Shown here: piece by piece, positions 18,897 through 39,668 of the stretch
How positions within the stretch are numbered: the first letter of the stretch is position 1
Layout of the letters: the number at the start of each line of letters is the position of its first letter
DNA from: Burkholderiales bacterium
Lineage (GTDB): Bacteria > Pseudomonadota > Gammaproteobacteria > Burkholderiales > Burkholderiaceae_C
Assembly (NCBI GenBank): GCA_947462065.1
Contig: CANHNO010000001.1
Coordinates: 1-47,562, forward strand
DNA: 47,562 bases
Direction: 5' to 3'
Translations under genes and position numbers: made by a program
Notes under the pieces: model-generated
Seen by the model: the letters and a program-made list of their open reading frames with translations, nothing else
Told to the model about the DNA's origin: nothing
Databases searched by the model: none

Positions 18897-19642
18897 GGCT
18901 GCGCACCCTGCTGCGGTGCAAGGGTCTCCATCGCATTGCGCTGCGCCAGATCCAGCCCGACCAGCGCACCCATGATCATCTTGCCGCCAGCCTGCAGGTC
19001 CTGGAAGGTCGCCGTGGTGATCAAGTCGTTTTCGTACAGGCTCTTGCGGTAGTCGGTCGAGAGGGTCTCTGCGCGCGCGGCCAGACTGCGCATTTCTTCG
19101 GCGACGACGGCAAACCCACGACCCTCCGCACCAGCGCGCGCTGCCTCGATGGATGCGTTGAGGGTCACGATCGTCATCTGTCGAACGATGAGCGTGAAGT
19201 CATCGTTCTTGCGGTGCATGCCGCCGTTGTGGGTGAGCACGCCATCCATCGCCGCGTGCCAGCGCTCGAAGGTCTTGTCGACCTGCATCAGCTCCTGCAA
19301 GCCGCGCGCAAGTTCGCCGATCTGCGCCTGCGCCTGCCGCGATGCGCTGTTGGCGGCGGCGACCTCCCGTCGAGTCTCTGCCGTGAGCCTGGCGTGCTCG
19401 GCGGCGGCGCTTCGGGCCGCGGACTCCAGGTCCCGGCAGCGATCCTCGGCCGCTTCGCGCTCCCAGTGAGCCTGCTCGAGTTGCGCGTGCAGTCGTTCGA
19501 TCTCTGCCGACAACGCGGCCTTCTCGGCCACCGCTTCGGGTGAAGGATGGCGCTGCCAGGGCCAGCGGATGTTGCGCGCATCAGGAGGCGTCGCCAGGCC
19601 TGCGGCCTGTGGCAGAGCTTCCGCCATTGCGGTGTCAGACAT
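18893..19642 (-). CDS. soluble minimal MCP-like protein (signalling-tip domain only)
   Basis: 249 aa with no TM segment. N-terminal coiled coil, then TLNASIEAARAGAEGRGFAVVAEEMRSLA, the invariant MCP hairpin tip. Confidence 0.75.
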   Translation of the reverse strand: MSDTAMAEALPQAAGLATPPDARNIRWPWQRHPSPEAVAEKAALSAEIERLHAQLEQAHWEREAAEDRCRDLESAARSAAAEHARLTAETRREVAAANSASRQAQAQIGELARGLQELMQVDKTFERWHAAMDGVLTHNGGMHRKNDDFTLIVRQMTIVTLNASIEAARAGAEGRGFAVVAEEMRSLAARAETLSTDYRKSLYENDLITTATFQDLQAGGKMIMGALVGLDLAQRNAMETLAPQQGAQP

Positions 19643-24280: not shown

Positions 24281-24490
24281 CAGTTTGTCCTTTTCATGCA
24301 GATGCCGCAGATGTGCGGGCTGAAACTGTCTGTGCAAGGTGCATTGTGCTTGGCGCCGGTGCGGCCCGTCCGGCGTGTGGTCGTATTGACCGAAAAATCG
24401 GAAAAAGCGCCCGATCACTCGCACAATGAGTCCATCTATCCCGGACGCCGCATCCTGCGGCCTCAGGCCTCGCTGGAGGAGCTGCGCTCG

Positions 24491-25924
24491 ATGACACACG
24501 CCTTGATCGTCGATGACGATGTGGGTTCGGCGTCCACCCTGAAGGCGCTGATCATGGCCGAGCACTGCACGGTCGCGGTGGTGCACAACCTGCGCGATGC
24601 CCGACGCCAGATCGCCCTGCAGCAACCCGAGCTGGTGCTGCTCGACCTGCAGCTGCCCGACGGCAACGGCATGGACCTGTTCGCCGAGCCCGAGTTGCTG
24701 GCCAATTCAGAGGTGGTGCTGATCACCGGCCACGCCTCGCTGGAGACCTCGATCCAGGCGCTGCGACTGGGTGCTGCTGACTACCTTGTGAAACCCATCA
24801 ACCTGCGTCAGCTGCAGGGTGTGCTGTCGCGGGTGACGAAGCCGGCGCTGCTCAAGGCCGAGGTCGAGACGCTGGCCGCGCAGGTGGCGCCGAGTGGCCA
24901 CTTCGGCGCGCTGTGGGGCCGCGCGCCGGCGATGCTGCGGCTCTATGAGCAGATCGCCCGGGTGGCGTTGACCAGCGTGACGGTGTTCATCACCGGCGAA
25001 AGCGGCAGCGGCAAGGAGGTCGTCGCGCAGACGGTGCACGACCTGAGCCGCCGCCGCAAGCAGCCGTTTCTGGCTGTCAATTGCGGTGCGATCTCGCCCA
25101 ACCTCATCGAAAGCGAGATCTTCGGCCACGAGAAAGGCAGCTTCACCGGTGCCGATCGCCAGCACCTGGGATTTTTCGAGCGTGCCAGCGGCGGCACGCT
25201 GTTCCTCGACGAGATCACCGAAATGCCGATGGAGCTGCAGGTCAAGCTGCTGCGCGTGCTGGAGACGGGCTGCTTCATGCGCGTGGGCTCGACACAGATG
25301 CAGGCGGCCGATGTGCGGGTGCTGGCCGCCACCAACCGCCGTCCCGAGCAAGCGGTCGCCACCGGCAAGCTGCGCGAAGACCTGCTGTACCGGCTGAATG
25401 TGTTCCCGATCGAGCTGCCGCCGCTGCGCGAGCGGCTCAGCGACGTCGGTCTGCTGGCGCAGCATTTCCTGAACGCTTTTGGCGTCCAGGAAGGGCAGGC
25501 CAAGCATTTCACTTCAGCCGCACTGGATCGGCTCCTGCAATATCGCTGGCCCGGCAATGTGCGCGAGCTGCGCAATGCGGTGCAGCGCGCCTATGTGATG
25601 GCTGCAGGCGATGTGATCGACCCGCAATGGTTGCCTCAGCCTTCGCCGCTGACCGAGCCGACTGTTGGCGCTCAGGTGGCGGCAATTCCGTCGGCCATCC
25701 GGCGAACTGCTTCGGCGTCCGACGACGCATTCGAGCAGGAGTCGGTCACGCTGTCCATCGGCACCTCGCTGGCGACGGCCGAGCGCACGCTGATCCTAGC
25801 CACGCTGCGCCACCACCACCACCAGAAGGAGCGCACGGCGGCGGCGCTGGGCATCAGCCTGAAGACGCTTTACAACCGTTTGAAGGAGTACGCCGCCGAC
25901 GGCCTGGACCATGCGGCGCATTGA
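24491..25924 (+). CDS. sigma-54-dependent response regulator (NtrC family: REC - AAA+ - Fis HTH)
   Basis: REC domain (IVDDD...[11 protein letters not shown]), Walker [15 protein letters not shown] loop, GGTLFLDEI, and a C-terminal [18 protein letters not shown]. Confidence 0.92.
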
Positions 25925-28336: not shown

Positions 28337-29854
28337 TCACGGGTGCGCGGCAGGGCCTTCAATGGCGCCATGCAGTGCGGCGACCAGCTCCGCCGGCTGA
28401 CACGGTTTGTCCAGCACGATGAAGTCTTCCCCGGCCAGGGTTTTTGCCGCGTAACCGCTGATCAGTACCACGGGCAGATCGGGGCAGGCGTCTCGCAGCA
28501 CGCGCGCCAGGCCCAGACCGTCCATGCCACCGGGCATCTTGATGTCCGACAGCACCACATCGAAAGCGGGTTCGTCGGCGATCAGGCGCAACGCGCCTTG
28601 CGGATCGACGACGCGACTCACCTCGCAGCCTAGCCGACTGAGCAGGGCCTCGGTCACTTCGGCAAGGTCGTCGTTGTCTTCCACCAGCAGCAATCGCGCG
28701 CCTTCGATCGAGGGTGCGGGGCTGTCGGGTTCCGCTGCGCCCAGGGGCGCCATGGCGTCCTCGCAGGCGGGTAGCAGCAGGGACACGGTGGTGCCCAACC
28801 CCTCGGTGCTGGTCAGCCGCGCGGTGCCGCCCGCCTGCACGCAGAAGCCCATCACCTGGGCCAGACTCAGTCCGGTGCCCTGGCCTGCTTCCTTGGTGGT
28901 GAAGAAGGGCTCGAAAACACGCCCGGCCACCTCGTCGTCGATGCCAAGGCCATCGTCGCTGACGGTGATCAGCACATAGTCGCCGTCCGGCAGGTCGGGC
29001 ACCTCATCGTCGTGCGCGCGTCTTGCCTGCAGGCGCAGGTGCCCGCCCAGGGGCATGGCATCGCGCGCATTCAGGCTCAGGTTGGTCAGCGCGAGCTCGA
29101 GTTCATGGGCGTCCACCCGGACCAGGGGTGTGCCCGGCGCCACCGCCACCGTGACCTCGGTGCGCGCGCCCGTCACCGTTTGCAGCAGATCCCGCAGCTC
29201 ATGCAGTGCGCCCGCCAGATCAATCGGCCTGGCGCATCCCGGCTGCTGCGCTGCGAAGCGCAGCAGCTGCTTTGTCAGACGGCTGCCGACGGCCACGGCC
29301 CGCAAGGTGGCGGCCAACGGTGCCTGCAGTTCGGCAGCGGCGGACTGGCGCTGCATCAGGTGGGCGCTGTTGCTGATCACGCCCAGCAGGTTGTTGAAAT
29401 CGTGCGCGACGCCGCCGGTCAGGCGTCCCAGCGCCTCGATGTGCTGGCTGCGCGAAATGCGCTGCTCGGCCTCGCGCGTTCGTGTCAAAGCTGCGGCGAC
29501 CTCGAGCTCGAGCTTGCTGCGGGAACTGCGCAATCCGTCGGCGGCCTGGGTCAGTGCCGCAGCGACTTCGTTGCATTCCGCGATTCCGGTGGCCTGTGTT
29601 GCCACCAACTCGCCGGCCTGCATGCGGTCTGCGGCCTGCTTCAGAGAGTGCAGCGGTGCGGTGATACGGCCTGCCATCCAGAAGGCAGCCCACATCGCCA
29701 GGCCCAGCAACAGCAGCGAACCTGCCGCAAGCTTCTGCACCGATTGCGGGTCGGCGGCGTCGTTGTCGATGACGAACCAAAGGACCGCCACCACGCCCGG
29801 CACCCAGACCGACATGACGAGCAGCAACAGGCGGGAGCGGATGGAAAGGGTCAT
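28337..29854 (-). CDS. hybrid sensor histidine kinase / response regulator
   Basis: Two TM segments with a short loop, HAMP-like linker, H-box GGVAHDFNNLL, HATPase (DDGLGI, GQGTGLSLAQV) and a C-terminal REC domain (LLLVEDNDD...SDIKMPGGMDG). Confidence 0.9.
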   Translation of the reverse strand: MTLSIRSRLLLLVMSVWVPGVVAVLWFVIDNDAADPQSVQKLAAGSLLLLGLAMWAAFWMAGRITAPLHSLKQAADRMQAGELVATQATGIAECNEVAAALTQAADGLRSSRSKLELEVAAALTRTREAEQRISRSQHIEALGRLTGGVAHDFNNLLGVISNSAHLMQRQSAAAELQAPLAATLRAVAVGSRLTKQLLRFAAQQPGCARPIDLAGALHELRDLLQTVTGARTEVTVAVAPGTPLVRVDAHELELALTNLSLNARDAMPLGGHLRLQARRAHDDEVPDLPDGDYVLITVSDDGLGIDDEVAGRVFEPFFTTKEAGQGTGLSLAQVMGFCVQAGGTARLTSTEGLGTTVSLLLPACEDAMAPLGAAEPDSPAPSIEGARLLLVEDNDDLAEVTEALLSRLGCEVSRVVDPQGALRLIADEPAFDVVLSDIKMPGGMDGLGLARVLRDACPDLPVVLISGYAAKTLAGEDFIVLDKPCQPAELVAALHGAIEGPAAHP

Positions 29855-30015: not shown

Positions 30016-30945
30016 TCAGCGTGCGGCGAGGTGTCCTTCGGCGTCGGAGAACAGCACTTCGACGCGACGGTTGCGCTGCCGACCCGCCGCGCTACCGTTG
30101 TCGGCCACCGGATTGGCCTCGCCCCAGGCGCGCACCTCGATGCGTTCGGCTGCGATGCCGCCGTTCATCAGCTCACGCTGGAAGGTTTGAGCCCGGCGCT
30201 GCGACAGCCTCATGTTCATCTCTTCTCTGCCCACGCTGTCGGTGAAGCCTTCGATCAGCACCCTGCGTTCGGGGTGACGGATCAGCACCTGCACCAGTTG
30301 TGCCACGCTGCGCTGAGCACCCGGTTGCAGGGTGGACTTGCCGGTGTCGAACAGCACGTCACCCAGCGTCACCACCATGCCACGGTCGGTCTTCTGGGCC
30401 TTCAGGTCGGCCAGATCGCGCTCGAGCCCTTCGGCACGGCCGGATTGCTTGAGCGCCAGCAGTCTTGCGGCGTCGGCTTGCTCCCTCGATATCTGCGAGT
30501 CGGTTTGTGCGTTGCGCGCATCGGCCTGCGCATCACGCGCATCGGCTTCTGCTGCGTGGGCGCTGGCGGTCGCCATATCCGCCTCGCTGGTGCGAGCCTG
30601 CAGCCGGACCTTTTCGCGCTCGGCAGTGAATTGCTGCACACGTTCGTCGGACTGCGCCTGCGTACCGATTGCCAACGCGATGTCGGCGCGCTTGCGCGCC
30701 AGGTAGGCGAGGTGTCGCGTCTGCTCCACATCGTGATCTGCGGCCCAGGCGGCTTCGGCGCGGGTCATCGCCTGCTGGGCGCTCTGCAACTCGACGGCGC
30801 CGCTGCGCCCGACGTAGGGGTTGCTGTTCGCCTGGTCCAGCGAACTGCGCGCGGCGACCAGGTCGGGATTCGGGCCGGGGGTGGTCTGGCAGGCGGCAAG
30901 TGCCAGCAGCGTGGCGGTGGCAATCAGGGTGCGGGTGGTGTTCAT
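30016..30945 (-). CDS. DUF4398 - OmpA-family lipoprotein
   Basis: Lipobox LLALAAC. N-terminal DUF4398-like helical domain. C-terminal OmpA_C (FDTGKSTL...GFTDSVG...NRRVEV). Start at ATG 30945 (MNTTRT). Confidence 0.85.
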   Translation of the reverse strand: MNTTRTLIATATLLALAACQTTPGPNPDLVAARSSLDQANSNPYVGRSGAVELQSAQQAMTRAEAAWAADHDVEQTRHLAYLARKRADIALAIGTQAQSDERVQQFTAEREKVRLQARTSEADMATASAHAAEADARDAQADARNAQTDSQISREQADAARLLALKQSGRAEGLERDLADLKAQKTDRGMVVTLGDVLFDTGKSTLQPGAQRSVAQLVQVLIRHPERRVLIEGFTDSVGREEMNMRLSQRRAQTFQRELMNGGIAAERIEVRAWGEANPVADNGSAAGRQRNRRVEVLFSDAEGHLAAR

Positions 30946-30972
30946 GGTGTGTTCCGTCAGTTCATGCAAAGG

Positions 30973-31362
30973 TCAGGGCATCGGGCGGGGGGCTTGCTTC
31001 GCCGCCGCGCGGTTGAGTTCGTCGCGCAGCGTCTGCAGGCCGGTTTCCAACTCGGCGACCGCCAGTCGCGAGCGTTCCGAGCCGGCCTTGGCTCGGGCGA
31101 GCTGGGCATCGACATCCGCCTGCTCGGCCATGCGCATCGCAGCCCGGTCGTCGCCAGCAGCGGCCAGCGCACGAGCCTTCTCCAGCTTGTTGCGCGCTTC
31201 GTTCAGATCGACGGCATCGAGCTCCGGCGCACCGGCCGAGCGGGCGGCTTCCACCGAAGCGGCGCCCGCGGCAATGGACGGCGCCGCCGAGGGCGCGCTG
31301 CCGCAACTGGCCAAGGCGATGGCGCAGGTGGCCAGCACGGTGGTGAGGATCAGTGTCTTCAT
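30973..31362 (-). CDS. DUF4398-like lipoprotein
   Basis: 129 aa with lipobox ALASCGS. The helical body resembles the N-terminal domain of the next gene. GGAG RBS. Confidence 0.7.
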   Translation of the reverse strand: MKTLILTTVLATCAIALASCGSAPSAAPSIAAGAASVEAARSAGAPELDAVDLNEARNKLEKARALAAAGDDRAAMRMAEQADVDAQLARAKAGSERSRLAVAELETGLQTLRDELNRAAAKQAPRPMP

Positions 31363-31406
31363 GCGATGTCTCCAGGGAGTGTTCAAAGGGTTGTTTCTTC
31401 GCTGGG

Positions 31407-31421
31407 GCAATCGACGCGCCC
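31407..31421 (-). promoter_or_regulatory. sigma-54-type promoter candidate
   Basis: Minus-strand reading GGGCGCG-tcga-TTGC. It lies 45 nt upstream of ATG 31362. Confidence 0.45.
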
Positions 31422-31653
31422 GGGTCAACATCGGGCCGTGCAGGAGCGGCATTTGCCGTCCATCGGCATTCGCATGTCCGGTGGTGTCCTCTCCAGGGCG
31501 GCGCAGTTGCAGGCGCATGCGCAGATCGAGATGGAACCGTTCTACCCGGCGCTGGACCTGGACACGCTCGGCGCCGGCATGGCCGTGCGCCGCGGTGAAT
31601 TGCCGGGCGAGCAGGGCTCGGACTGAGCAGCCCCGGGCCTTGGCCGCCGCGAC

Positions 31654-33312
31654 TCAGGCGGGTTGCTGCGGGCTGGCCTCGACCGTCACGGGCGCGAGAG
31701 GCAGCGTGACGACGAATTCGCTGCCCATGCCCTTGCCGGCGCTGTGTGCCGTGACGGTGCCGCCATGCGCTTTCACCAGTTCTTCCACCACCGTCAGGCC
31801 CAGCCCCAGCCCGTTGGTGTTGAACTTGTGGGCAGCCTCGTCCTGCATGAACGGCTCGAAGATGTGCGGGAGGGCTCGCTCATGGATGCCAATGCCGTTG
31901 TCGCGCACCGTCAGCACCACCGCGTCGACGCTGCGGCTCATCGACAACACGATCTCGCCCGAAATCGGCGTGTACTTCGATGCGTTGTCCAGCAGGTTGC
32001 GCAGCACCTGCGCCAGCCGTACCGGGTCGCAGTTCAACGCCAACTCGCCCGGCTGCAGATGCACCAGGAAGTGTTGCAGCCGGGTGTCGATCGCCGGACG
32101 GCTGGCCTCGACCACGTCGTTGATGAGTGTGATCAGATTCACCTCACTGAGCTCCAGCCGCAGCTTGCTGCCTTGCGCACGCGACACATCGAGCAGGTCA
32201 CTGACCAGCCGTGACATCTGTGCCGCCTGTCGCTCGATCACTGCATTTATCCGTGGCAGTGGAGGTGGAATGTCTTCGCTGGCGATCAGCGCGGATGCGT
32301 TGCGGATCGCCGTCAATGGCGAACGCAACTCGTGAACCGCTTGTGCCATTCGCAGGTTGTGCCGCTTCAGTGCTTTCTCGGCAGCGTCCTGCAGCCGTTT
32401 TGCATCGAGTGCGCCGAGCAGCAACTTCTCGTTGGCCTCCTGGAGCAATTGGTGCCGCTCCACATGCGCGTTGATGGCCTCCTGGGAACTGGTCACGGGC
32501 AGGCGCAGCGACTCGGGAAAGGCGACTTGCAATGCGTGGCCGGAAACAGGATCGGAAGCCTTGGACACCGCATAGCCCAAGCCCCGCCGCTTTGCCTCGT
32601 ACATGGCGGCGTCTGCCGCGTCGATCAGCGTGGTCACATCTTCACCATCGTCGGGGTACACGCTGATGCCGATGCTGGCGCTCAAGCGCAGCACATGTCC
32701 GGCGAGTTGCGTCGGCACAGCGAGCGCGGCATTGATCTTGTCGGCAATGGCGCCGGCATCGCTGGCGTGCGCCACATCGTCGAGCAGGATCAGGAATTCA
32801 TCGCCCCCAAAGCGACTGACGGTGTCCGAGGCGCGAACGACCGAAACCATGCAACGGGCGGCCAGTTGCAAAACCTGATCGCCGAAGTGGTGTCCCAGCG
32901 CGTCGTTGACCTGCTTGAAGCCATTCAGGTCGACAAACAGCACTGCCATGCGGCGATTGCGACGTCGCCCCCCGGCGATGGCCTGGGTGAAACGGTCGAG
33001 GAACAGCATCCGGTTGGGCAGCTGTGTCAGTGCGTCGAGCGCGGCCACACGAGACATTTCCAACATCGAACGCATCGCCTCGTCGGATTCGACCTTCGAC
33101 TGCATCAGCGCCAGCACCAGCTGCTCGTTGGCTTCCAGCAGATCGGAGGCCTTGCCGGAGTCGGCCACAGGGCTTCGCGCCTCAGACCTGTCATCCCGCA
33201 GGGACTGCAGTGCCCTGCGCGCCCTGTCTACCTCGGTGCGCAATTCGAGCAACTCAAGCCTGGCGCGGACCAACTCTGCGTTGTCGGCGTCGCTGTGACC
33301 CGGATCGTTCAT
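31654..33312 (-). CDS. GGDEF diguanylate cyclase fused to a HisKA-HATPase histidine kinase
   Basis: N-terminal coiled coil. An apparently intact GGDEF domain (RASD I-site-like RxxD five residues before RFGGDEF). H-box HELRSPLTAI. N box LLDNASKYT, G boxes DNGIGI and GLGLGL. Confidence 0.88.
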   Translation of the reverse strand: MNDPGHSDADNAELVRARLELLELRTEVDRARRALQSLRDDRSEARSPVADSGKASDLLEANEQLVLALMQSKVESDEAMRSMLEMSRVAALDALTQLPNRMLFLDRFTQAIAGGRRRNRRMAVLFVDLNGFKQVNDALGHHFGDQVLQLAARCMVSVVRASDTVSRFGGDEFLILLDDVAHASDAGAIADKINAALAVPTQLAGHVLRLSASIGISVYPDDGEDVTTLIDAADAAMYEAKRRGLGYAVSKASDPVSGHALQVAFPESLRLPVTSSQEAINAHVERHQLLQEANEKLLLGALDAKRLQDAAEKALKRHNLRMAQAVHELRSPLTAIRNASALIASEDIPPPLPRINAVIERQAAQMSRLVSDLLDVSRAQGSKLRLELSEVNLITLINDVVEASRPAIDTRLQHFLVHLQPGELALNCDPVRLAQVLRNLLDNASKYTPISGEIVLSMSRSVDAVVLTVRDNGIGIHERALPHIFEPFMQDEAAHKFNTNGLGLGLTVVEELVKAHGGTVTAHSAGKGMGSEFVVTLPLAPVTVEASPQQPA

Positions 33313-33335: not shown

Positions 33336-34871
33336 TCAGAGAAGCCCGCGTTCGGGATCGGAGCGAGTCATCGCAGCCACGGTCTTTTGGGTCGGTCGAC
33401 CGCCCAGTAGCCCTTCCTGGTCAACGAGCCTGCTGCCAATGTGAATGCCGTCGCCTTCGATGTGGAACTCGCGCAGTTCGTCGGAATGCGCGCTGGCACG
33501 CACCTTCACCACGGCCATCACGCGACGCAGGCGACTGTCGACCTCGATGTAGCGCTGCACGATGATCGCGTCGGTCATGAACGCGGTGCCATAGGGGCTG
33601 AAGCGCAGGTCGGTGTAGCGGTCCTCGAGCTCGGAGGTCATCAGCATCGTCACGCCGGCCCCGGTCATCGCCTTCACCAGTCGCGACATCGACTCGCGGA
33701 AGTCGTCTCGGAAGGTCGGGGCGACCGACAGCTCGAAGCTGGAGAGCGAATCAATGACGACGCGCGTGGCCTTCAGTCGGCGGATCTCGTCGAGCAGCAG
33801 CATCACGATCTCGTCGATCGACAGATCGGGCGCGCGGCTGTCCACCACGCCGACCTGGCCGCTGGCGATCAGTTCGGTGACCAGCCGGTTGCGCGAGCGG
33901 TTCGGGTGCTGCTCGAACACCGCGATGACGCCGGTCTCGCCGAGGCGCGCGCCTTCGGCGAGGAACGCGGCTGCGAGGATGCTCTTGCCCGAACCGGATG
34001 GTCCGGCGACCAGCAGCGAATAACCCCGTGGCAGTCCGCCGCCCATCATCTCGTCGAGGTGCGGCACCCCCATCGGGACGCGCGAACTCGATGTCGACGC
34101 GGGTGCGGCTGACGGGGCCGCGAGCGCGATCGAGCCGGCAGTGTCCTCGCCCTGTGGTTGCGAGATGGCAGGCGCGAAAACGCGCACGCCGCTCGGGTCG
34201 ATGCGAAAGGTATGCAGCCCGGGCAGCGTGGGCTGGCCGCGCATCTTCATGATCTCCATCTTGCGCACCACCGAATTGCGCATCACGCTCTGACGCATCC
34301 AGATCAGGCCGTCGGCCACAGTGAACACCGGGTTTGCGTCCGTCTCGTCGAAGCACTCTCCGATCAGGAAGGTGGTGGCCTGCCAGCTGGTCATCAGCAT
34401 GCCGAGCTGCTGCACGAACGATTGGAGATTCGTACGTGGATCGGGCGCGGTCTGCTGGGCAGCGTTGGCCAGCACCACCGAGCGGAACGAGTCGACGAAC
34501 ACCAGCGACGGGCCGTGGGTGGTCACTTCTTCGACGATGCGGCGCAGCACACGGTCGAGATCGCCGGCCATGGCCTCCTCGGACAGGTTGATGAAGCGGA
34601 TCGCGCGCGTCACCGCCTCGGTGTCGAAGAAATCGAACTGCTGCTGGTAGCGAAGCATCTTCAGCGGCGGCTCGCCCAGCACGGTGAAGTACAGCGCAGG
34701 TCGTTCGGGCGTTGCCAGCGCAAACATGATCTGGTGAGCGAGCGTGGTCTTGCCGCAGCCGGGCTGCCCGGCTATCAGGTTGAACGAGAACTCCGGCAGC
34801 CCACCGCCGAGCACCTCGTCCAGCCCCGGCACGCCGGTGCGCAGGCGGTTGATGGTCACTTTGGTGTTCAT
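33336..34871 (-). CDS. KaiC-like double RecA-domain ATPase
   Basis: 511 aa. TGVPGLDEVLGGGLP with Walker A GQPGCGKTT in domain 1. GVPHLDEMMGGGLP with GPSGSGKS in domain 2. Start at ATG 34871. Confidence 0.85.
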   Translation of the reverse strand: MNTKVTINRLRTGVPGLDEVLGGGLPEFSFNLIAGQPGCGKTTLAHQIMFALATPERPALYFTVLGEPPLKMLRYQQQFDFFDTEAVTRAIRFINLSEEAMAGDLDRVLRRIVEEVTTHGPSLVFVDSFRSVVLANAAQQTAPDPRTNLQSFVQQLGMLMTSWQATTFLIGECFDETDANPVFTVADGLIWMRQSVMRNSVVRKMEIMKMRGQPTLPGLHTFRIDPSGVRVFAPAISQPQGEDTAGSIALAAPSAAPASTSSSRVPMGVPHLDEMMGGGLPRGYSLLVAGPSGSGKSILAAAFLAEGARLGETGVIAVFEQHPNRSRNRLVTELIASGQVGVVDSRAPDLSIDEIVMLLLDEIRRLKATRVVIDSLSSFELSVAPTFRDDFRESMSRLVKAMTGAGVTMLMTSELEDRYTDLRFSPYGTAFMTDAIIVQRYIEVDSRLRRVMAVVKVRASAHSDELREFHIEGDGIHIGSRLVDQEGLLGGRPTQKTVAAMTRSDPERGLL

Positions 34872-35311
34872 GGCTTGGGATCCTTGGCAGCGGAGTCGCT
34901 CGACGTGGCGACCCACACAGGGCGTATCAGTCGCTCGGTCAACGAGGGCCCGACCACGCTGGACAACAGATCGTGGAAGGTGGTGAAAAGCGTGGTGGCA
35001 CCAGCCATGGCAGCAACGGCGCTCTGCTGGCAAAGCAGTGGGGTCAATTCGGAGAAGTCGGCGACGGCTGGTGCGACGTCATCAGCCACGCTCAGCCACT
35101 GGTGGTCTTGCGCGGTGATGTGGACGCTGCGCTGGTAGAGCGCAGCCAAACCGCGTTTGCCGATGATCGGCACCAACACCGCATCAATTCCGCCCCAGGT
35201 GACGAGGACGGCGTCTGCAATCTGTGCGCTATCGGCGCTCGGCGGGACCCTGCTCGCGAAATGGGTTGCTACCGAAACGCCCAACGGGTTTTCCGTGGAC
35301 ATCGTCAGCAA
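34868..35311 (-). CDS. hypothetical protein, first gene of the KaiC-like operon
   Basis: 147 aa (or 144 aa from ATG 35302) with GC3-biased codons. ATGA overlap with the KaiC-like start. No family recognised. Confidence 0.55.
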   Translation of the reverse strand: MLTMSTENPLGVSVATHFASRVPPSADSAQIADAVLVTWGGIDAVLVPIIGKRGLAALYQRSVHITAQDHQWLSVADDVAPAVADFSELTPLLCQQSAVAAMAGATTLFTTFHDLLSSVVGPSLTERLIRPVWVATSSDSAAKDPKP

Positions 35312-35389
35312 TCTTTCTGTGCGTGGACTTTGATACTAAGCGTCGTGCCCGCGATCGGGAACAAAAAATGTGTCACGGTTTGATTCACA

Positions 35390-35404
35390 GCAAACGGCGT
35401 GCCG
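35390..35404 (-). promoter_or_regulatory. sigma-54-type promoter
   Basis: Minus-strand reading CGGCACG-ccgt-TTGC(T), a near-consensus match to TGGCACG-N4-TTGCW. It lies about 80 nt upstream of start 35311. Confidence 0.6.
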
Positions 35405-35485
35405 CGGCGGCGCATGAACCCGACTTGCTTTTTTTGGGAAGGGCGTTTGGCACGCGCAAATCGGCAAGATTTACCGCAAGGCTCT

Positions 35486-35508
35486 CCGCATCGGTAAACG
35501 CGATGCGG
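35486..35508. promoter_or_regulatory. palindrome midway between divergent sigma-54 promoters (candidate activator site)
   Basis: CCGCATCG-gtaaacg-CGATGCGG. It lies about 95-115 bp from both -12 elements. Confidence 0.3.
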
Positions 35509-35605: not shown

Positions 35606-35620
35606 CGGCACGGGGGTTGC
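35606..35620 (+). promoter_or_regulatory. sigma-54-type promoter upstream of the rpoN paralog
   Basis: CGGCACG-gggg-TTGC(G), 64 nt upstream of TTG 35684. Confidence 0.55.
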
Positions 35621-35683
35621 GATCAGAAACACCAAAGACGAGCCAAACGGCTGGTCTCTCAACACTCCTTCAGGAGCCTCCCG

Positions 35684-37147
35684 TTGTCATCGCTGCATTT
35701 CTTGGCCGACACGCGACACGCACAGACGCTGTCGCCACGCTTTCAGCATGCGGTGCGTCTGCTGCAGCTGTCTTCGATGGACTTCGCCGCGACGGTGCGC
35801 GATGTGTTGGGCCAGAACCCATTCCTCGAACTCGAAGAGGGCCTGTCCGACGGTGACGGTTCAGGCGACGATGGCGAGGCTGACCGCAGCGACGACGAGC
35901 GTGTCGAGGCGGACGCGCCCTATGACGGCAACACGCTGTCCGCTGCCATGGACGGGATGTCCGATGAGCGGAGTGACGACCGAGAGCTGTGGCAGGTCGA
36001 TGCGCCGTCGTCGCAGCGGCCGGCGGGTGACGGCGATCTGTCGGCGCTGGACATGATGGCGGTCGAAACGCCGTTGAATGCGCACCTCAACGCCCAGCTC
36101 GATCTGCAGCCCTTGGCCACCCGGGAGCGGTGGCTCGCGCGCACCATCGTCGAATCGCTCGACGACGACGGCTACCTGCGTGCATCGCTGGCTGAACTGT
36201 GCGAGCTGTGCGAGTTGAGCCCGCCGATCCGGCTGTCTGAGATGCAGGCGGCATTGGTGCGTGTGCAGGCGCTGGACCCGGCGGGTGTGGCGGCGTGCAG
36301 TGTGGCCGAGTGCCTTCGGCTGCAACTGCCATCGATCGAATGCCCGCAGCTGCGCGCACTGGCTGAGCGCGTGTTGAACCAGCACCTGGGGCTGCTGGCG
36401 GCACGCGATGTCCCTGCGCTGGCGCGCTCGCTGGGTGAGCCCGTGTCGAGGATGCAGCAGGTGTGCGATCGCATTCGTCGACTCGATCCGCGGCCGGGCT
36501 GGCGGTTCAGCTCGACGCGCATTGCCTATGTGGTGCCCGATGTGGTGGTGAAGAAAGTTCGCGGCGAATGGCGGGTGCACCTGAACCCGTCGGTGATCCC
36601 TCGCGTTCGCCTCAATCAGATGTATGCCGACCTGTTCAAGCGTCACCGCACCCCATCCCACGCCGACATGGCGAGTCAGTTGCAGGAAGCGCGGTGGACC
36701 GTCAAGAACGTCGAGCAGCGCTTTTCGACCATCCTCGACGTCGCCGAAGCGATCGTCAGGCGGCAGCGGCATTTCCTCGAGTTCGGACCGATGGCGATGA
36801 AGCCCCTGGGCCTGAAGGAGATCGCCGACGAACTCGGCATCCATGAATCGACCGTCTCGCGGGTGACCAACAACAAGTTCATCGCCACACCCAGTGGCGT
36901 GTTCGAGCTGAAGCACTTCTTCTCCCGAGCGATGGTCACGGCCAATGGCAGCACGTGCTCCGGCACCGCGATCCGCGGTTTGCTCAAGGACATGATCGCT
37001 GCAGAGGCACCGCAGTCGCCGCTGTCCGACGCCGAGATCACGCGGCAACTGGCGCAGCAGGGGCTGGTGGTCGCACGTCGCACCGTCACCAAGTACCGGC
37101 AGTTGCTGCGCATCGATGCGGTCGAGCGCCGGCGCCGGCAGGCCTGA
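35684..37147 (+). CDS. rpoN: RNA polymerase sigma-54 factor (probable second copy)
   Basis: Region I TLSPRFQHAVRLLQLSS, acidic region II, HTH GIHESTVSRVTNNKF, and RpoN box ARRTVTKYR. TTG start as given by the ORF track. Confidence 0.9.
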   Translation: MSSLHFLADTRHAQTLSPRFQHAVRLLQLSSMDFAATVRDVLGQNPFLELEEGLSDGDGSGDDGEADRSDDERVEADAPYDGNTLSAAMDGMSDERSDDRELWQVDAPSSQRPAGDGDLSALDMMAVETPLNAHLNAQLDLQPLATRERWLARTIVESLDDDGYLRASLAELCELCELSPPIRLSEMQAALVRVQALDPAGVAACSVAECLRLQLPSIECPQLRALAERVLNQHLGLLAARDVPALARSLGEPVSRMQQVCDRIRRLDPRPGWRFSSTRIAYVVPDVVVKKVRGEWRVHLNPSVIPRVRLNQMYADLFKRHRTPSHADMASQLQEARWTVKNVEQRFSTILDVAEAIVRRQRHFLEFGPMAMKPLGLKEIADELGIHESTVSRVTNNKFIATPSGVFELKHFFSRAMVTANGSTCSGTAIRGLLKDMIAAEAPQSPLSDAEITRQLAQQGLVVARRTVTKYRQLLRIDAVERRRRQA

Positions 37148-37168
37148 CCGTGCGGTGGGCGCTCCATG

Positions 37169-37183
37169 CGGCACGTCGCTTGC
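37169..37183 (+). promoter_or_regulatory. sigma-54-type promoter
   Basis: CGGCACG-tcgc-TTGC(C), 22 nt after the rpoN stop and 82 nt upstream of ATG 37265. Confidence 0.6.
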
Positions 37184-37264
37184 CAATGGTTACATCGACA
37201 GCGGTACCGAGCCCTTGCTGCCGCGTCGGATGGTTTGCCGTGCCTTGAACCCTGGAGTACCCCA

Positions 37265-37855
37265 ATGAACACCGACATGGATCTGATCAAGCGCTGGCCG
37301 CAGGCGGTCACGCTGGATATCGCCGTTCACTACGAACGCAGCGCGCCCGACCGGCGGACCTATCGCCTTGCACCCTGCGATCGCACGCCGCTGGTTCGGG
37401 TGATGACTCCCCAGCACCGTGGGTCCCCGCTTGAACTGCAGCGAATGAATTGGTCGCAGTTGCCGGGCCGCACGCTGTACCTGCGCAGCCTGGGTGTGCT
37501 GGCGGTTCACTTGTTTGGCGAAGCGGCGATGCCGCCGCGTGCGCGCGGCGCGCCGCTGTGGCAACACATCAGCGCCGGCATCTCGACCGATCAGAACGCT
37601 GCCCACCAGATCTACTTCGAACTGGATGCGGTTGACGACGCGCAGGCGGTGCTGCGTTACCGCTGCTCCGAAACTCAGCCGCCGGTCCGGCGGGTGGTCG
37701 CGCTCGATGTGCTCGACGCTGATCCGCTTCGCGCGCTGTTGCGCATTGGCATGGCGCGGGTCCGGCCGGTCCTGATGAGCAATGCAACGCTCGCGCCCTC
37801 TGCGCCGCATACCAGGCACGTTCATGTGGCGCCTGAGCTGGCGCAGCAAGCGTGA
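37265..37855 (+). CDS. hypothetical protein
   Basis: 196 aa from ATG 37265 (MNTDMDLIKRW). No family recognised. Confidence 0.5.
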   Translation: MNTDMDLIKRWPQAVTLDIAVHYERSAPDRRTYRLAPCDRTPLVRVMTPQHRGSPLELQRMNWSQLPGRTLYLRSLGVLAVHLFGEAAMPPRARGAPLWQHISAGISTDQNAAHQIYFELDAVDDAQAVLRYRCSETQPPVRRVVALDVLDADPLRALLRIGMARVRPVLMSNATLAPSAPHTRHVHVAPELAQQA

Positions 37856-37880
37856 CCCGTTCCCCGCATCAGCTGCTGCC

Positions 37881-38564
37881 ATGATTGCCGTGATCATCTC
37901 GGCACGCAACGACGAGGCGCACCTCGGTACCTGCCTGCGGTCGGTGCGCGAGGCCTCGCGCCGACGCCGCCTGGGCGGCGAGGCGGTGCTGAGGCTGGTT
38001 GTGCTCGACACCTGTACCGACGGCAGCGCGGCCATCGCCCGCGATGGCGGTGCGCACACGCTGAGGCTGCAGACGGGCAACATCGGGGCGGCGCGGGCGC
38101 AGGGCGCGCAGTGGGCTGTAGACCGCAGCGCACGCTGGCTGGCGTTCACCGATGCCGAGTCTGTCGTGGCCCCCGACTGGCTGTCGATCCAGGTGGCGCT
38201 CGGCACCGATGTGGTCTGCGGGACGGTCGGTGTGCGGGACTGGGGCGAGGACGGCGAGCGCCTGCGTCGCCACTACGACGCCCACTACACCGATGCCGAT
38301 GGGCACCAGCACATCCATGGTGCCAATCTGGGTGTCAGCGCCGATGCCTATCGCCGCGCAGGCGGCTTCCATCCGATGGCGATCAGCGACGATGTGGCGC
38401 TGGTGCGCGCGCTGCAGGCCAGTGGGGCGACGATCGCCTGGTCGGCGGCGCCCCGGGTATCGACCAGCGCCCAGCGCCTGTTCAGCGCACCAGTCGGCTT
38501 CGGCGCGACCGCTCAGCGAATCGATGCCGAGAACCGCGCTTTTGGCACGGGGGCCGCTGCGTGA
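37881..38564 (+). CDS. glycosyltransferase family 2 protein
   Basis: MIAVIISARNDEAHLGTCL...DTCTDGS...FTDAES, GT-A/GT2 N-terminal signatures including a DxD-like DAE. Confidence 0.75.
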   Translation: MIAVIISARNDEAHLGTCLRSVREASRRRRLGGEAVLRLVVLDTCTDGSAAIARDGGAHTLRLQTGNIGAARAQGAQWAVDRSARWLAFTDAESVVAPDWLSIQVALGTDVVCGTVGVRDWGEDGERLRRHYDAHYTDADGHQHIHGANLGVSADAYRRAGGFHPMAISDDVALVRALQASGATIAWSAAPRVSTSAQRLFSAPVGFGATAQRIDAENRAFGTGAAA

Positions 38565-38788
38565 ATGCGATACGCACGCTCAGCAGTGAAGCTGCTGACA
38601 CCCTGCTGCCCGGACCGCTTCGCTGGAACCCGACACTGGTGCGCCTGCGCGCCTGCCTGCTGGCGCAACGGCCTGACCGCGACGCGGTGGAGGAGGTCTG
38701 CAGCCGCCTGCTGACCCCAGCCCGCTCAGGCGCGGATGACCTGGCCACGACCAGCCCGGCGGTGCCGTTGGGCGCCCGGTCAGACTGA
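38561..38788 (+). CDS. hypothetical small protein (doubtful)
   Basis: The GTG at 38561 overlaps the GT2 stop as GTGA. 75 aa with no homology recognised. Confidence 0.3.
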   Translation: MNAIRTLSSEAADTLLPGPLRWNPTLVRLRACLLAQRPDRDAVEEVCSRLLTPARSGADDLATTSPAVPLGARSD

Positions 38789-38856
38789 GAGGTCCGGTAC
38801 CGATCCTGCCGGGTTGGTCCGATCGCTCGCCACATTCGACGCAACCCTCTCTGGGC

Positions 38857-38871
38857 CGGCATGTCGTTTGC
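38857..38871 (+). promoter_or_regulatory. sigma-54-type promoter
   Basis: CGGCATG-tcgt-TTGC(C), 51 nt upstream of ATG 38922. Confidence 0.5.
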
Positions 38872-38921
38872 CATGGTCAGGCATGAAGTGCCATTGCGAA
38901 ACCCCATCCTCCCGCTTTGCG

Positions 38922-39668
38922 ATGCCCGCCCCGTTGCGCAGTGCAGCGTTGGACATCAGCCAAAGTGCCCACAAGAATCGCCTGCTGGCGCGGCTGCCTG
39001 ATGAGGCATGGCAGCGCTGGCTTCCGCAGCTCGAATGGGTCGATTTTCAGCAGGGACAGGTATTGCACGAGTCGGGCACCTTGCCCAGCCACGCCTACTT
39101 CCCGACAACGGCCATCCTGTCGCTGCTCAACGTGACGCAGGATGGCGCCTCGACCGAAATCGCTGCTGTCGGCAATGAGGGATTGGTCGGGGTGTCGCTG
39201 TTCATGGGCGGTGTCTCGACCTGCAGCCGTGCCGTGGTTCAAAGCGCTGGCTTCGGGTTGCGACTGAGGGCGCAGGCGATGCGGGCCGAGTTCGAGCGGT
39301 CTCCCGAGGTGATGCAGGTTCTGCTGCGCTACACCCAGGCACTGATGACGCAGATGGGCCAGACGGCAGTGTGCAACCGCCACCATTCGATCGAGCAGCA
39401 ACTGTGCCGCTGCCTGCTGTTGAACCTGGACCGGCTGGGGGGCAATGAGATCGTCATGACCCATGAGCTGATCGCCGGCACGCTGGGCGTGCGCCGCGAG
39501 GGGGTCACCGAAACGGCACTCAAGCTGCAGGCGGCCGGCTTGATCCGCTACGCGCGTGGGCACATCACCGTGCTCGATCGCCGCGGGCTGGAGAGCCGCG
39601 CCTGCGAGTGCTATGAGGTGGTGAGGAAGGAATACGATCGATTGCTGACGGACAGAATGGCCGCTTGA
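38922..39668 (+). CDS. Crp/Fnr family transcriptional regulator
   Basis: cNMP-binding-like beta-barrel (NRLLARLP...YFPTTAILSLL...VGNEGLVG) and a C-terminal HTH (THELIAGTLGVRREGVTETALKLQAAGLI). Alternative ATG at 38883. Confidence 0.85.
   Translation: MPAPLRSAALDISQSAHKNRLLARLPDEAWQRWLPQLEWVDFQQGQVLHESGTLPSHAYFPTTAILSLLNVTQDGASTEIAAVGNEGLVGVSLFMGGVSTCSRAVVQSAGFGLRLRAQAMRAEFERSPEVMQVLLRYTQALMTQMGQTAVCNRHHSIEQQLCRCLLLNLDRLGGNEIVMTHELIAGTLGVRREGVTETALKLQAAGLIRYARGHITVLDRRGLESRACECYEVVRKEYDRLLTDRMAA

What the first reader, a model, noticed from the sequence alone, without database searches (positions are those of the whole stretch)
33336..35311. KaiC-like ATPase operon without KaiA or KaiB, led by an uncharacterised 147-aa protein
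A double-domain KaiC homolog with two Walker A sites (GQPGCGKTT and GPSGSGKS) is translationally coupled to an upstream 147-aa ORF through an ATGA overlap at 34868-34871. I cannot assign that ORF to any family; it does not look like the thioredoxin-like KaiB. The operon sits behind a near-consensus sigma-54 promoter and continues into a GGDEF-histidine kinase. Non-cyanobacterial KaiC homologs are mostly uncharacterised. A KaiC-like ATPase feeding a c-di-GMP and phosphorelay output would be a new wiring.
Basis: partly seen in the sequence, partly recalled or inferred. Interest (0 to 1): 0.65.

Follow-up and report, generated by a model that had tools for sequence, protein, structure and literature searches.

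The report
KaiC-like signalling operon with unknown partner
A small helical protein of no known family is encoded, overlapping by four bases, in front of a clock-protein-like ATPase that lacks the clock's phosphorylation sites and is followed by a c-di-GMP synthase/histidine kinase; the gene set recurs across several bacterial phyla, and I found no description of the small protein in the papers I could search.

Summary
On the minus strand lie a 144-aa ORF (35302-34868), a 511-aa double-domain KaiC-like ATPase (34871-33336, ATGA overlap) and a 552-aa coiled-coil-GGDEF-HisKA-HATPase protein (33312-31654).

The small protein is real and conserved. Its family has 2,656 cluster representatives and 165 loci in species-representative genomes. 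It has no Pfam, NCBIfam or PDB sequence match. Its confident all-helical model matches no solved fold, so it is not detectably KaiA, KaiB or RecX.

In 80 loci seeded on the small protein and 3 seeded on KaiC, small gene -> KaiC-like -> output gene is almost invariant. The 4-base overlap is kept in about 70 of 80.

The ATPase is a KaiC-family paralogue, not a clock KaiC. S431/T432 are Ala/Phe in 71 of 71 sequences, each domain keeps one catalytic Glu, and it scores below the KaiC equivalog cut-offs.

Outputs are modular (GGDEF+HK 54, GGDEF 10, HK 3) behind a shared N-terminal coiled coil. Two loci put the small protein directly before, or fused to, the coiled-coil-GGDEF without KaiC.

Best reading: a stoichiometric signalling complex in which the small protein links the ATPase state to the output dimer. 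The sigma-54 promoter is specific to one lineage. A particular Crp-like regulator is a frequent fourth partner.

New variant of a known kind.

The parts
34868..35302 (-). Small 144-aa all-helical protein of an undescribed family (the alternative TTG start at 35311 gives 147 aa). It is the first gene of the module.
   Evidence: ORF and sequence. Homologues of matching length down to about 35% identity. Family size of 2,656 representatives. 165 genomic loci. No Pfam, NCBIfam, PADLOC or PDB sequence hit. AF2 models with pLDDT 79-81 and pTM 0.74-0.76, all alpha. No Foldseek PDB match (best E 0.5-1.1, TM at most 0.38).
33336..34871 (-). KaiC-like double RecA-type ATPase of 511 aa, the phosphosite-less 'AF' clade. 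Its ATG overlaps the small gene's TGA (ATGA at 34868-34871).
   Evidence: Two PF06745 domains. Below the KaiC equivalog cut-offs (206 against 408; 114 against 546). Alignment to solved KaiC structures. Motif conservation in 71 sequences. 8,000+ close clusters, named 'circadian clock protein KaiC' or 'ATPase domain-containing protein' by their sources.
31654..33312 (-). Output protein of 552 aa. It has an N-terminal coiled coil ending in LLEANEQLVLAL, a GGDEF domain (intact GGDEF plus an RxxD I-site), a second EANEKLL helix, then HisKA and HATPase_c. It has no receiver domain.
   Evidence: Pfam and NCBIfam. Conservation profile. Architectures among 67 loci and GGDEF/RxxD counts.
35389..35404 (-). 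Sigma-54-type -24/-12 promoter element, CGGCACGCCGTTTGCT, 86 nt upstream of the small gene's ATG.
   Evidence: It is conserved in L007, L008, L031, L025, L010 and L011. It is absent from the other rpoN-linked loci and from all non-rpoN loci.
35460..35497 (.). Conserved intergenic block, TTACCGATGCGG...TTGCGGTAAATCTTGCCGAT, lying between the two divergent sigma-54-type promoters. It is a candidate regulator or enhancer binding site.
   Evidence: Conserved in all 8 aligned intergenic regions, including L004, which has lost the promoter towards the small gene. Function not tested.
38736..39668 (+). Crp/Fnr-like transcription factor (the true start is probably about 150 nt inside this ORF). It is a candidate fourth component of the module.
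   Evidence: HTH_Crp_2 plus a weak cNMP_binding match. Very close homologues (E 1e-90 to 1e-160) lie within 7 kb of the module in 37 of 83 loci, often immediately upstream or downstream. Only remote solved relatives.

Best explanation
The three genes encode a stoichiometric cytoplasmic signalling complex. The KaiC-like protein is assumed to be a hexamer, as solved KaiCs are. It has two nucleotide sites per subunit but no S431/T432 acceptor residues. I propose it acts as an ATP-binding and slowly hydrolysing conformational switch, reporting energy charge, temperature or elapsed time, and not as a phosphorylation clock.

The small helical protein is made in fixed ratio with the ATPase through translational coupling. 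I propose it is the adaptor that binds both the ATPase and the N-terminal coiled coil of the dimeric output protein. In role this resembles the KaiB-like N-domain of SasA, but with an unrelated fold. The nucleotide state of the ATPase would thereby set the register or dimer geometry of the coiled coil. That in turn would set diguanylate cyclase and/or histidine kinase activity.

The c-di-GMP made would be read by effectors, possibly the co-located Crp-like regulator, by analogy with Xanthomonas Clp and Burkholderia Bcam1349. The kinase would feed an unlinked response regulator. In this lineage the operon is additionally placed under a sigma-54 promoter next to a second rpoN gene.

Shown here: gene order, gene coupling, family membership, residue conservation, modular outputs, the KaiC-less variants, and promoter conservation. 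Inferred: every physical interaction, the direction of signal flow, and the nature of the input.
For: Co-occurrence. In 80 loci seeded on the small protein, the order small -> KaiC-like -> GGDEF/HK holds wherever enough sequence is present. Three loci seeded on KaiC also carry the small gene with the same overlap.

Coupling. The 4-base ATGA overlap is present in about 70 of 80 loci across Burkholderiales, Xanthomonadales/Lysobacterales, Pseudomonas, Rhodocyclales, Nitrosomonadales, Chromatiaceae and Gemmatimonadota.

Link between the small protein and the output. In L085 the small gene overlaps a coiled-coil-GGDEF gene by 4 nt, with no KaiC between them. P0135/L087 is a single ORF of small domain, a roughly 25-aa Pro/Gly/Ser linker, coiled coil and GGDEF, with no KaiC within 6 kb.

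Modular output. The architectures are GGDEF+HK 54, GGDEF only 10 and HK only 3. A common N-terminal coiled coil carrying an xANExLV motif is found in 58 of 67. The coiled coil is therefore the constant element that receives the signal.

ATPase competence. The Walker A Lys/Thr, the Walker B Asp and one catalytic Glu per domain are invariant in 71 sequences, whereas S431/T432 are Ala/Phe in all of them.

No sensor. None of the three proteins has a sensor domain. The small protein has no conserved His or Cys.

Precedent. Pseudomonas KaiC homologues bind their neighbouring histidine kinases through the kinase N-terminal domain in two-hybrid and co-IP assays (bioRxiv 10.1101/2022.01.26.477890).
Against: No interaction was tested or modelled. 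The structure tool returns no coordinates or PAE, so a complex could not be evaluated.

Only two KaiC-less loci were seen. The P0135 fusion could be an indel artefact of a long-read assembly. Those genomes may also hold a KaiC-like gene elsewhere.

Tight coupling to kaiC, together with a well-conserved A-loop-like segment (EGLLGGRPT), fits equally well a protein that acts only on the ATPase.

The Crp-like regulator is also adjacent to HK-only variants. That weakens the idea that it reads c-di-GMP made by the module.
Confidence: 0.45

Rival explanations
1. The small protein regulates the ATPase only, as a functional analogue of KaiA or KaiB. It would bind the CII C-terminal or A-loop-like segment, or the CI ring, to change nucleotide exchange or hydrolysis. 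The KaiC-like hexamer itself would contact the coiled coil of the output protein.
For: Translational coupling to kaiC is near-universal. The A-loop-like EGLLGGRPT segment is highly conserved in 71 sequences. KaiC homologues bind their kinases directly in Pseudomonas. KaiA is also an all-helical dimer at its KaiC-binding domain (general knowledge).
Against: There is no sequence or fold similarity to KaiA or KaiB. The small protein also occurs beside or fused to the GGDEF protein without KaiC. An ATPase-only regulator would have no role there.
Confidence: 0.3
2. The small protein is the detached sensory or input domain of the cyclase/kinase, binding a small ligand or another protein. The KaiC-like ATPase would be an accessory that resets or gates it.
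For: There is a fusion of the small domain to a GGDEF protein and a KaiC-less pair. The output protein has no sensor domain of its own. All-helical bundles are common sensor modules (general knowledge).
Against: No cofactor- or metal-type residues (His, Cys) are conserved. The invariant positions are mostly Leu, Ala, Gly and Pro, plus R58 and the TER motif, which looks like an interface rather than a pocket. About 97% of sampled loci contain the ATPase, and the ATPase is the most conserved of the three proteins. That is odd for an accessory.
Confidence: 0.17
3. The locus is not a signalling module. The ATPase would be a RecA/RadA-type DNA repair or anti-phage protein, and the neighbouring genes would be unrelated.
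For: Weak matches to RadA, RecA and DnaB models, and weak P-loop-only matches to PADLOC models (mad8 at E 5e-11 over about 57 residues).
Against: KaiC models and KaiC structures score far better than RecA or RadA. There is no zinc finger, Lon or DNA-binding domain. The partners are signalling enzymes in every phylum sampled. The flanks are housekeeping genes that differ from locus to locus, not defence islands.
Confidence: 0.03

Closest known systems
Cyanobacterial KaiC with its output kinase SasA (KaiB-like N-domain plus HisKA/HATPase) and partners KaiA and KaiB
   Same: A double-domain KaiC-fold ATPase (two PF06745 domains). The best solved relatives are KaiC hexamers. It lies next to, and probably controls, a histidine kinase. 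A small partner protein is encoded beside it.
   Different: It lacks S431/T432 (Ala/Phe). It has one instead of two catalytic Glu per domain (LGE in CI, FEQ in CII). The B-loop region is shortened. It scores below the KaiC equivalog cut-offs. There is no KaiA or KaiB. The partner is all-helical with no KaiA, KaiB or thioredoxin-like fold. The output carries a GGDEF domain and a coiled-coil N-terminus in place of a KaiB-like one.
Pseudomonas KaiC-like 'group II' (Terrettaz et al., bioRxiv 10.1101/2022.01.26.477890) and the 'black group / AF' KaiCs of De Luca et al. 2011 (PMC3164672)
   Same: Probably the same KaiC clade. Both lack phosphorylatable residues at positions 431/432 and have nearby Thr residues. 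Closest relatives are in Xanthomonadales, and the gene is followed by a histidine kinase. P. taetrolens and P. morbosilactucae carry the module.
   Different: Neither paper, in the parts I read or term-searched, mentions the upstream 140-aa gene. The Pseudomonas preprint also has no occurrence of 'GGDEF', 'diguanylate' or 'hypothetical'. Group II was not studied experimentally. That it is the same clade is inferred from the published description, not from a shared tree.
KaiA (C-terminal KaiC-binding domain)
   Same: A small helical partner of a KaiC-type ATPase. The ATPase here keeps a conserved A-loop-like segment that KaiA would bind in cyanobacteria.
   Different: There is no Pfam KaiA hit for any of 20 family members at E up to 5. 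No KaiA chain appears in the listed top 50 Foldseek matches for either model. The helix topology differs: one 40-residue helix plus four or five shorter ones.
Coiled-coil-regulated diguanylate cyclases and Clp/Bcam1349-type Crp-family c-di-GMP receptors
   Same: An N-terminal coiled coil directly precedes an intact GGDEF domain with an RxxD I-site. A Crp/Fnr-family regulator recurs beside the module.
   Different: The cyclase is fused to a complete histidine kinase. The input is a KaiC-like ATPase plus an unknown protein, not a receiver or PAS domain. c-di-GMP binding by this Crp-like subfamily is untested, and the regulator also accompanies HK-only variants.

Membership tests
KaiC superfamily (Pfam PF06745, double-domain) | Two tandem KaiC/RecA-like ATPase domains, each with Walker A and Walker B motifs | tested here: met
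   PF06745 at E 1.5e-67 with 2 stretches. Walker A Lys/Thr and Walker B Asp are invariant in 71 sequences. The top PDB hits are all KaiC.
Circadian clock KaiC (NCBIfam equivalogs NF006799 and TIGR02655) | Score above the curated equivalog cut-off | tested here: not met
   206.4 bits against a cut-off of 408, and 114.5 bits against a cut-off of 546.
Circadian clock KaiC | Phosphorylatable S431 and T432 in CII | tested here: not met
   The HMMER alignment to 7dy1 maps S431 to A430 and T432 to F431. Ala/Phe occurs in 71 of 71 clade members. The T426 equivalent is an invariant Ser.
Circadian clock KaiC | Paired catalytic glutamates in CI (E77/E78) and in CII (E318/E319) | tested here: not met
   CI reads LGE and CII reads FEQ, so only one Glu is kept in each domain. 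Both motifs are invariant or nearly so.
Circadian clock KaiC | kaiB (and kaiA) adjacent or present | tested here: inconclusive
   None of the annotated neighbours is KaiA- or KaiB-like. The rest of the genome cannot be seen.
KaiA | KaiA domain (Pfam PF07688) or the KaiA C-terminal four-helix-bundle fold | tested here: not met
   No Pfam hit for 20 members at E up to 5. No KaiA chain appears in the listed top 50 Foldseek PDB matches for two models; the best match has probability 0.2 or less.
KaiB / SasA N-domain | Thioredoxin-like alpha/beta fold | tested here: not met
   Both AF2 models are all-helical with no strands, at pLDDT 79-81. There is no Pfam KaiB hit.
RadA/Sms or RecA recombinases | A single RecA domain with a zinc finger and Lon-like domain (RadA), or a RecA equivalog score | tested here: not met
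   RadA TIGR00416 scores 55 bits against a cut-off of 403, and RecA scores 31 against 325. The architecture is two KaiC domains only.
Diguanylate cyclase (GGDEF) | GGDEF domain with an intact GG(D/E)EF active-site motif | tested here: met
   PF00990 at E 1.1e-46. RxxD-x5-GGDEF is present in the window protein and in 61 of 64 GGDEF-bearing homologues. Enzyme activity was not tested.
HisKA-type histidine kinase | HisKA domain with the phospho-accepting His, plus HATPase_c | tested here: met
   PF00512 at E 6.7e-11 and PF02518 at E 3.3e-28. The H-box HELRSPL is present. No cognate receiver is encoded in the operon.
Sigma-54-dependent operon | A GG-N10-GC -24/-12 element at a suitable distance, plus a bEBP | tested here: inconclusive
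   The element matches 10 of the 11 specified consensus positions, lies 86 nt upstream, and is conserved in 6 relatives. An NtrC-type bEBP is encoded at 24296-25924. No transcription data are available. The element is absent from most loci of the family.

The most novel reading that the evidence does not exclude
The 140-aa helical protein founds a new class of KaiC-binding partner, unrelated in fold to KaiA and KaiB. Together with a phosphosite-less KaiC paralogue it forms a purely ATPase-driven timer or energy sensor. That sensor would control c-di-GMP synthesis, a phosphorelay and a dedicated Crp-like regulator in thousands of soil and freshwater Proteobacteria and Gemmatimonadota. It would be a second, independent solution for coupling a KaiC-type engine to cellular output.
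Probability: 0.3. Interest if true: 0.8.

Novelty: new variant of a known kind. Interest (0 to 1): 0.6.

Why it matters
Most KaiC homologues lie outside cyanobacteria, and what they do, and through which partners, is largely open. It is also conserved to 70-80% identity across phyla, and it lacks the phosphorylation sites on which the clock mechanism rests.

Finding an obligate, translationally coupled partner of unknown fold, interchangeable cyclase and kinase outputs behind one coiled coil, and a recurring Crp-like regulator gives a concrete three- or four-protein system to reconstitute. Cultured hosts are available: Pseudomonas taetrolens, P. morbosilactucae, Marilutibacter alkalisoli, Luteimonas suaedae, Pseudaquabacterium terrae and Variovorax ginsengisoli.

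The system would test whether a KaiC-type ATPase can signal without phosphorylation. It would also link this family to c-di-GMP control of lifestyle. Finally, the small protein family deserves a family definition in the domain databases.

Tried and rejected
1. Sequence searches of the small protein found nothing meaningful. These covered Pfam (single sequence, and 20 members at E up to 5), NCBIfam, PADLOC and a PDB profile search. The best results were chance-level hits to Nitro_FeMo-Co, FCD and an ATP-grasp fragment.

2. Two AF2 models were built, from 20-sequence and 119-sequence alignments. Each was searched with Foldseek against the PDB. There was no match with probability above 0.2 or TM above 0.38. 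KaiA, KaiB, RecX and four-helix sensor folds are therefore not supported.

3. A complex prediction of the small protein with KaiC, or with the output coiled coil, was considered and dropped. The structure tool returns neither coordinates nor PAE, and it accepts only native sequences.

4. My first sigma-54 scan indexed the GC dinucleotide wrongly. It was redone.

5. The sigma-54 site as a general feature of the module was rejected. It is found only in part of the rpoN-linked clade.

6. The defence-system reading was rejected (and the flanks seen).

7. A response regulator as a conserved neighbour was rejected. Receiver-domain hits lie near only about 12 of 83 loci and at varying positions.

8. 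One literature search with genus names returned nothing useful. Searches for KaiC+GGDEF, KaiC+c-di-GMP and KaiC+Xanthomonas found no paper on this module.

9. No intrinsic terminator or sigma-70 promoter was found by the simple scans.
Full report
**1. What is there**

The window is a complete 47,562-bp contig of an uncultured Burkholderiales bacterium; its closest relatives are MAGs labelled Rubrivivax and Burkholderiales. On the minus strand lie three tightly packed genes.

- A small ORF runs 35302-34868 (144 aa from the ATG). Most homologues start at the position of the ATG.
- A 511-aa ORF runs 34871-33336. Its ATG overlaps the TGA of the small ORF, reading ATGA at 34868-34871.
- A 552-aa ORF runs 33312-31654, starting 23 nt after the second stop and preceded by GGAG.

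Pfam gives two KaiC domains for the second protein (PF06745, E 1.5e-67). It gives GGDEF + HisKA + HATPase_c for the third, and nothing for the first.

**2. The small protein is a real, widespread, undescribed family**

- A word-indexed search found 19 clusters of 138-147 aa down to 42% identity. All are unnamed or 'hypothetical protein'.
- An exhaustive profile search found 2,656 cluster representatives at E up to 1e-3 and 1,493 at E up to 1e-10. Of the 150 best listed, all but one are stand-alone proteins of about 113-240 aa; the exception is the 452-aa P0135.
- A scan of one genome per species found 165 loci. They lie in Burkholderiales, Rhodocyclales, Nitrosomonadales, Xanthomonadales/Lysobacterales, Pseudomonas, Marinobacterium, Chromatiaceae and Gemmatimonadota.
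- Conserved motifs are PIIGxRG(L/V)AALYxRS and GxSLTERLLRxVW. No His or Cys is conserved.
- Pfam, NCBIfam, PADLOC and a PDB profile search give nothing.
- Two AlphaFold2 models, from 20 and 119 sequences, agree on an all-helical protein: one 40-residue helix plus four or five shorter ones, with pLDDT 79-81 and pTM 0.74-0.76.
- Foldseek against the PDB finds no match. The best hits have E 0.5-1.1, probability 0.2 or less, and TM 0.38 or less.

The protein is therefore not detectably KaiA, KaiB/SasA-N (thioredoxin-like) or RecX.

**3. The gene set is conserved far beyond chance**

- In three divergent metagenomic contexts the small gene is followed by a KaiC-like gene and a GGDEF-HK gene, while the flanks differ.
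- In the 80 genome loci, tblastn finds the KaiC-like gene immediately downstream wherever the contig continues. There is one clear exception (L085) and one truncated copy (L068). A GGDEF and/or HK gene follows.
- The small-gene stop and the KaiC start overlap by 4 nt (ATGA; GTGA once) in about 70 of 80 loci.
- As an independent sample, I seeded on the KaiC-like protein instead. Three loci, from Pseudomonas taetrolens, Marilutibacter alkalisoli and a 511-kb MAG contig, each have a 139-144-aa homologue of the small protein upstream with the same overlap.

**4. What kind of KaiC this is**

- The best solved relatives are KaiC hexamers (8zn5 at E 2.5e-53; Thermosynechococcus and Synechococcus KaiC at about 1e-43 to 1e-36). 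RecA scores 7e-14 and RadA about 1e-5.
- The protein scores well below NCBI's KaiC equivalog cut-offs: 206 against 408, and 114 against 546.
- Residue mapping through the HMMER alignment, checked across 71 clade members, gives the following:
  - CI Walker A, G(Q/P)PG(C/S)GKTT, and Walker B are invariant.
  - The CI 'FEE' pair is LGE, so the first Glu is lost.
  - CII Walker A, GPSGSGKS, and Walker B are invariant.
  - CII E318/E319 is E-Q.
  - S431/T432 are Ala/Phe in 71 of 71.
  - The T426 equivalent is an invariant Ser, and T434 is kept.
  - The A-loop-like EGLLGGRPT segment is strongly conserved.
  - The region aligned to the KaiB/SasA-binding B-loop is shorter.
  - The last ~10 residues are not conserved.
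- The clade is very large and slow-evolving. 8,000 or more clusters passed E 1e-20 (the cap), and the top 120 are all at least 69% identical. Identity is 70-80% between Burkholderiales and Gemmatimonadota, whereas the small protein is about 40% identical.

This matches published descriptions. One is the 'black group', which includes an 'AF' phosphosite pattern (De Luca et al. 2011, PMC3164672). The other is the uncharacterised Pseudomonas 'group II': no phosphorylatable residues, relatives in Xanthomonadales, associated only with a histidine kinase (Terrettaz et al. preprint). In the sections and term searches I ran, neither paper mentions the upstream small gene.

**5. The output protein and its variants**

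- The window protein has an intact GGDEF motif with an RxxD I-site five residues upstream. It also has a normal H-box (HELRSPL) and HATPase_c. It has no receiver and no PAS or GAF domain.
- Among 67 complete third genes, 54 are GGDEF+HK, 10 are GGDEF only and 3 are HK only. Pseudaquabacterium terrae carries two paralogous modules with different outputs (L021 and L036).
- What all variants share is an N-terminal coiled coil of about 85 aa ending in an (L)LEANEQLV(L)AAL-type motif, found in 58 of 67. The motif recurs before the HisKA domain.

The coiled coil is therefore the constant, signal-receiving element, and the catalytic outputs are interchangeable.

**6. A link between the small protein and the output that does not need KaiC**

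- In L085 (a Rhizobacter MAG) the small gene overlaps a coiled-coil-GGDEF gene directly by 4 nt.
- P0135/L087 is one ORF: small domain, a Pro/Gly/Ser-rich linker of about 25 aa, coiled coil and GGDEF. No KaiC-like gene lies within 6 kb.
- The fusion may be an assembly indel, but in either case the genes are adjacent.

This 'Rosetta stone' pattern argues that the small protein acts on or with the output protein. The near-universal translational coupling argues that it also works with the ATPase. The simplest reconciliation is an adaptor.

**7. Regulation and wider context in this lineage**

- The element CGGCACGCCGTTTGCT (35389-35404, minus strand) fits the sigma-54 -24/-12 consensus. Alone it is not above chance.
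- It is kept 85-187 nt upstream of the small gene in L007, L008, L031, L025, L010 and L011. It is lost in L004/L009, L012, L020, L027 and L028, and absent outside this clade.
- These loci all carry a divergently transcribed rpoN paralogue (window 35684-37147). That gene has its own sigma-54-type element (35606-35621, plus strand), conserved in all 13 rpoN-linked loci checked.
- A strongly conserved block (35460-35497) lies between the two promoters.
- An NtrC-type activator (24296-25924) and a hybrid kinase (28337-29854) lie nearby.
- Independently of this lineage, a specific Crp/Fnr-like regulator (window 38736-39668) has near-orthologues (E 1e-90 to 1e-160) within 7 kb of the module in 37 of 83 loci. 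They often lie directly downstream of the third gene or directly upstream of the first, including next to HK-only variants. Receiver domains are not consistently nearby.

**8. Mechanism proposed**

See the best explanation and its rivals. Established here are the anatomy, conservation, coupling, residue states and modularity. Inferred are complex formation, the adaptor role of the small protein, an ATPase state (not phosphorylation) as the signal, c-di-GMP read-out by the Crp-like protein, and feeding of an unlinked response regulator. In this lineage that regulator could be the NtrC-like activator, which would close a loop onto the sigma-54 promoters. Precedent for KaiC-kinase contact comes from Pseudomonas two-hybrid and co-IP data.

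**9. Verdict**

The finding is real and well observed. The system belongs to the known kind 'KaiC-like ATPase coupled to two-component or c-di-GMP output'. It is a distinct variant of that kind: it lacks the phosphosites, it has an obligate partner of unknown fold, its outputs are modular, and a Crp-like regulator recurs beside it. No paper on this module turned up in the searchable literature. Interest is 0.6.

Noticed in passing
window 35684-37147 (+) and 35606-35621 (+): An rpoN (sigma-54) gene lies outside the usual lptB-rpoN-hpf context, so it is probably a second copy. It has its own sigma-54-type element, CGGCACGGGGGTTGCG, 62 nt upstream. A near-identical element is conserved 39-69 nt upstream of rpoN in all 13 rpoN-linked loci checked (one more diverged, at 85 nt, in L025), which suggests auto-regulation or cross-regulation.
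   Followed up: partly
window 35460-35497: A strongly conserved intergenic block, TTACCGATGCGG..TTGCGGTAAATCTTGCCGAT, contains the inverted repeat TTACCG-N15-CGGTAA. It lies between the two divergent sigma-54-type promoters. It is kept even in L004, where the promoter towards the small gene is lost. It is a candidate binding site for an activator or for the Crp-like regulator.
   Followed up: partly
window 38736-39668 (+); e.g. L002 5111-5833, L090 2536-3141: A specific Crp/Fnr-like regulator subfamily has only remote solved relatives. It recurs beside the small/KaiC-like/output module in 37 of 83 loci, including next to HK-only variants.
   Followed up: partly
window 24296-25924 (+), 28337-29854 (-), 19635-22001 (-): An NtrC-type sigma-54 activator (REC-AAA+-HTH_8), a HAMP hybrid histidine kinase, and a 4HB_MCP-HAMP-Hpt-HATPase kinase lie near the module. 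The hybrid kinase is conserved downstream in the close relatives (L004, L008, L009, L031).
   Followed up: no
window 37166-37855 (+), 37782-38564 (+): A Pfam-less protein of about 196 aa and a family-2 glycosyltransferase sit between rpoN2 and the Crp-like gene, as does a 68-aa ORF in L004. The 196-aa protein was found in 12 of 83 loci and the glycosyltransferase in 6 of 83.
   Followed up: no
L085 1-1878; L087 6001-7359 (P0135): These are KaiC-less variants. In L085 the small gene overlaps a coiled-coil-GGDEF gene by 4 nt. In L087 the small domain is fused to the coiled-coil-GGDEF in one ORF, which could be a long-read indel artefact.
   Followed up: partly
window 31654-33312 (-), residues 58-69 and 289-300: The motif (L)LEANE(Q/K)L(V/L)L occurs twice, once before the GGDEF domain and once before the HisKA domain. 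It is conserved across the family. It looks like a repeated signalling-helix element.
   Followed up: partly
L021 and L036 (Pseudaquabacterium terrae S2, two contigs): One genome carries two paralogous modules. One has an HK-only output and the other a GGDEF-HK output.
   Followed up: no
L068 7405-7803; L001 6429-7496; L022 3398-3895: In a few MAG loci the KaiC-like gene is truncated or frameshifted (132, 355 and 165 aa) while the flanking small and output genes look intact. This could be decay or an assembly error.
   Followed up: no
window 30016-30969 (-), 30973-31518 (-): A DUF4398 protein and a DUF4398-OmpA protein lie directly downstream of the output gene. No terminator was detected between them and the output gene. 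They are conserved only in the close relatives.
   Followed up: no
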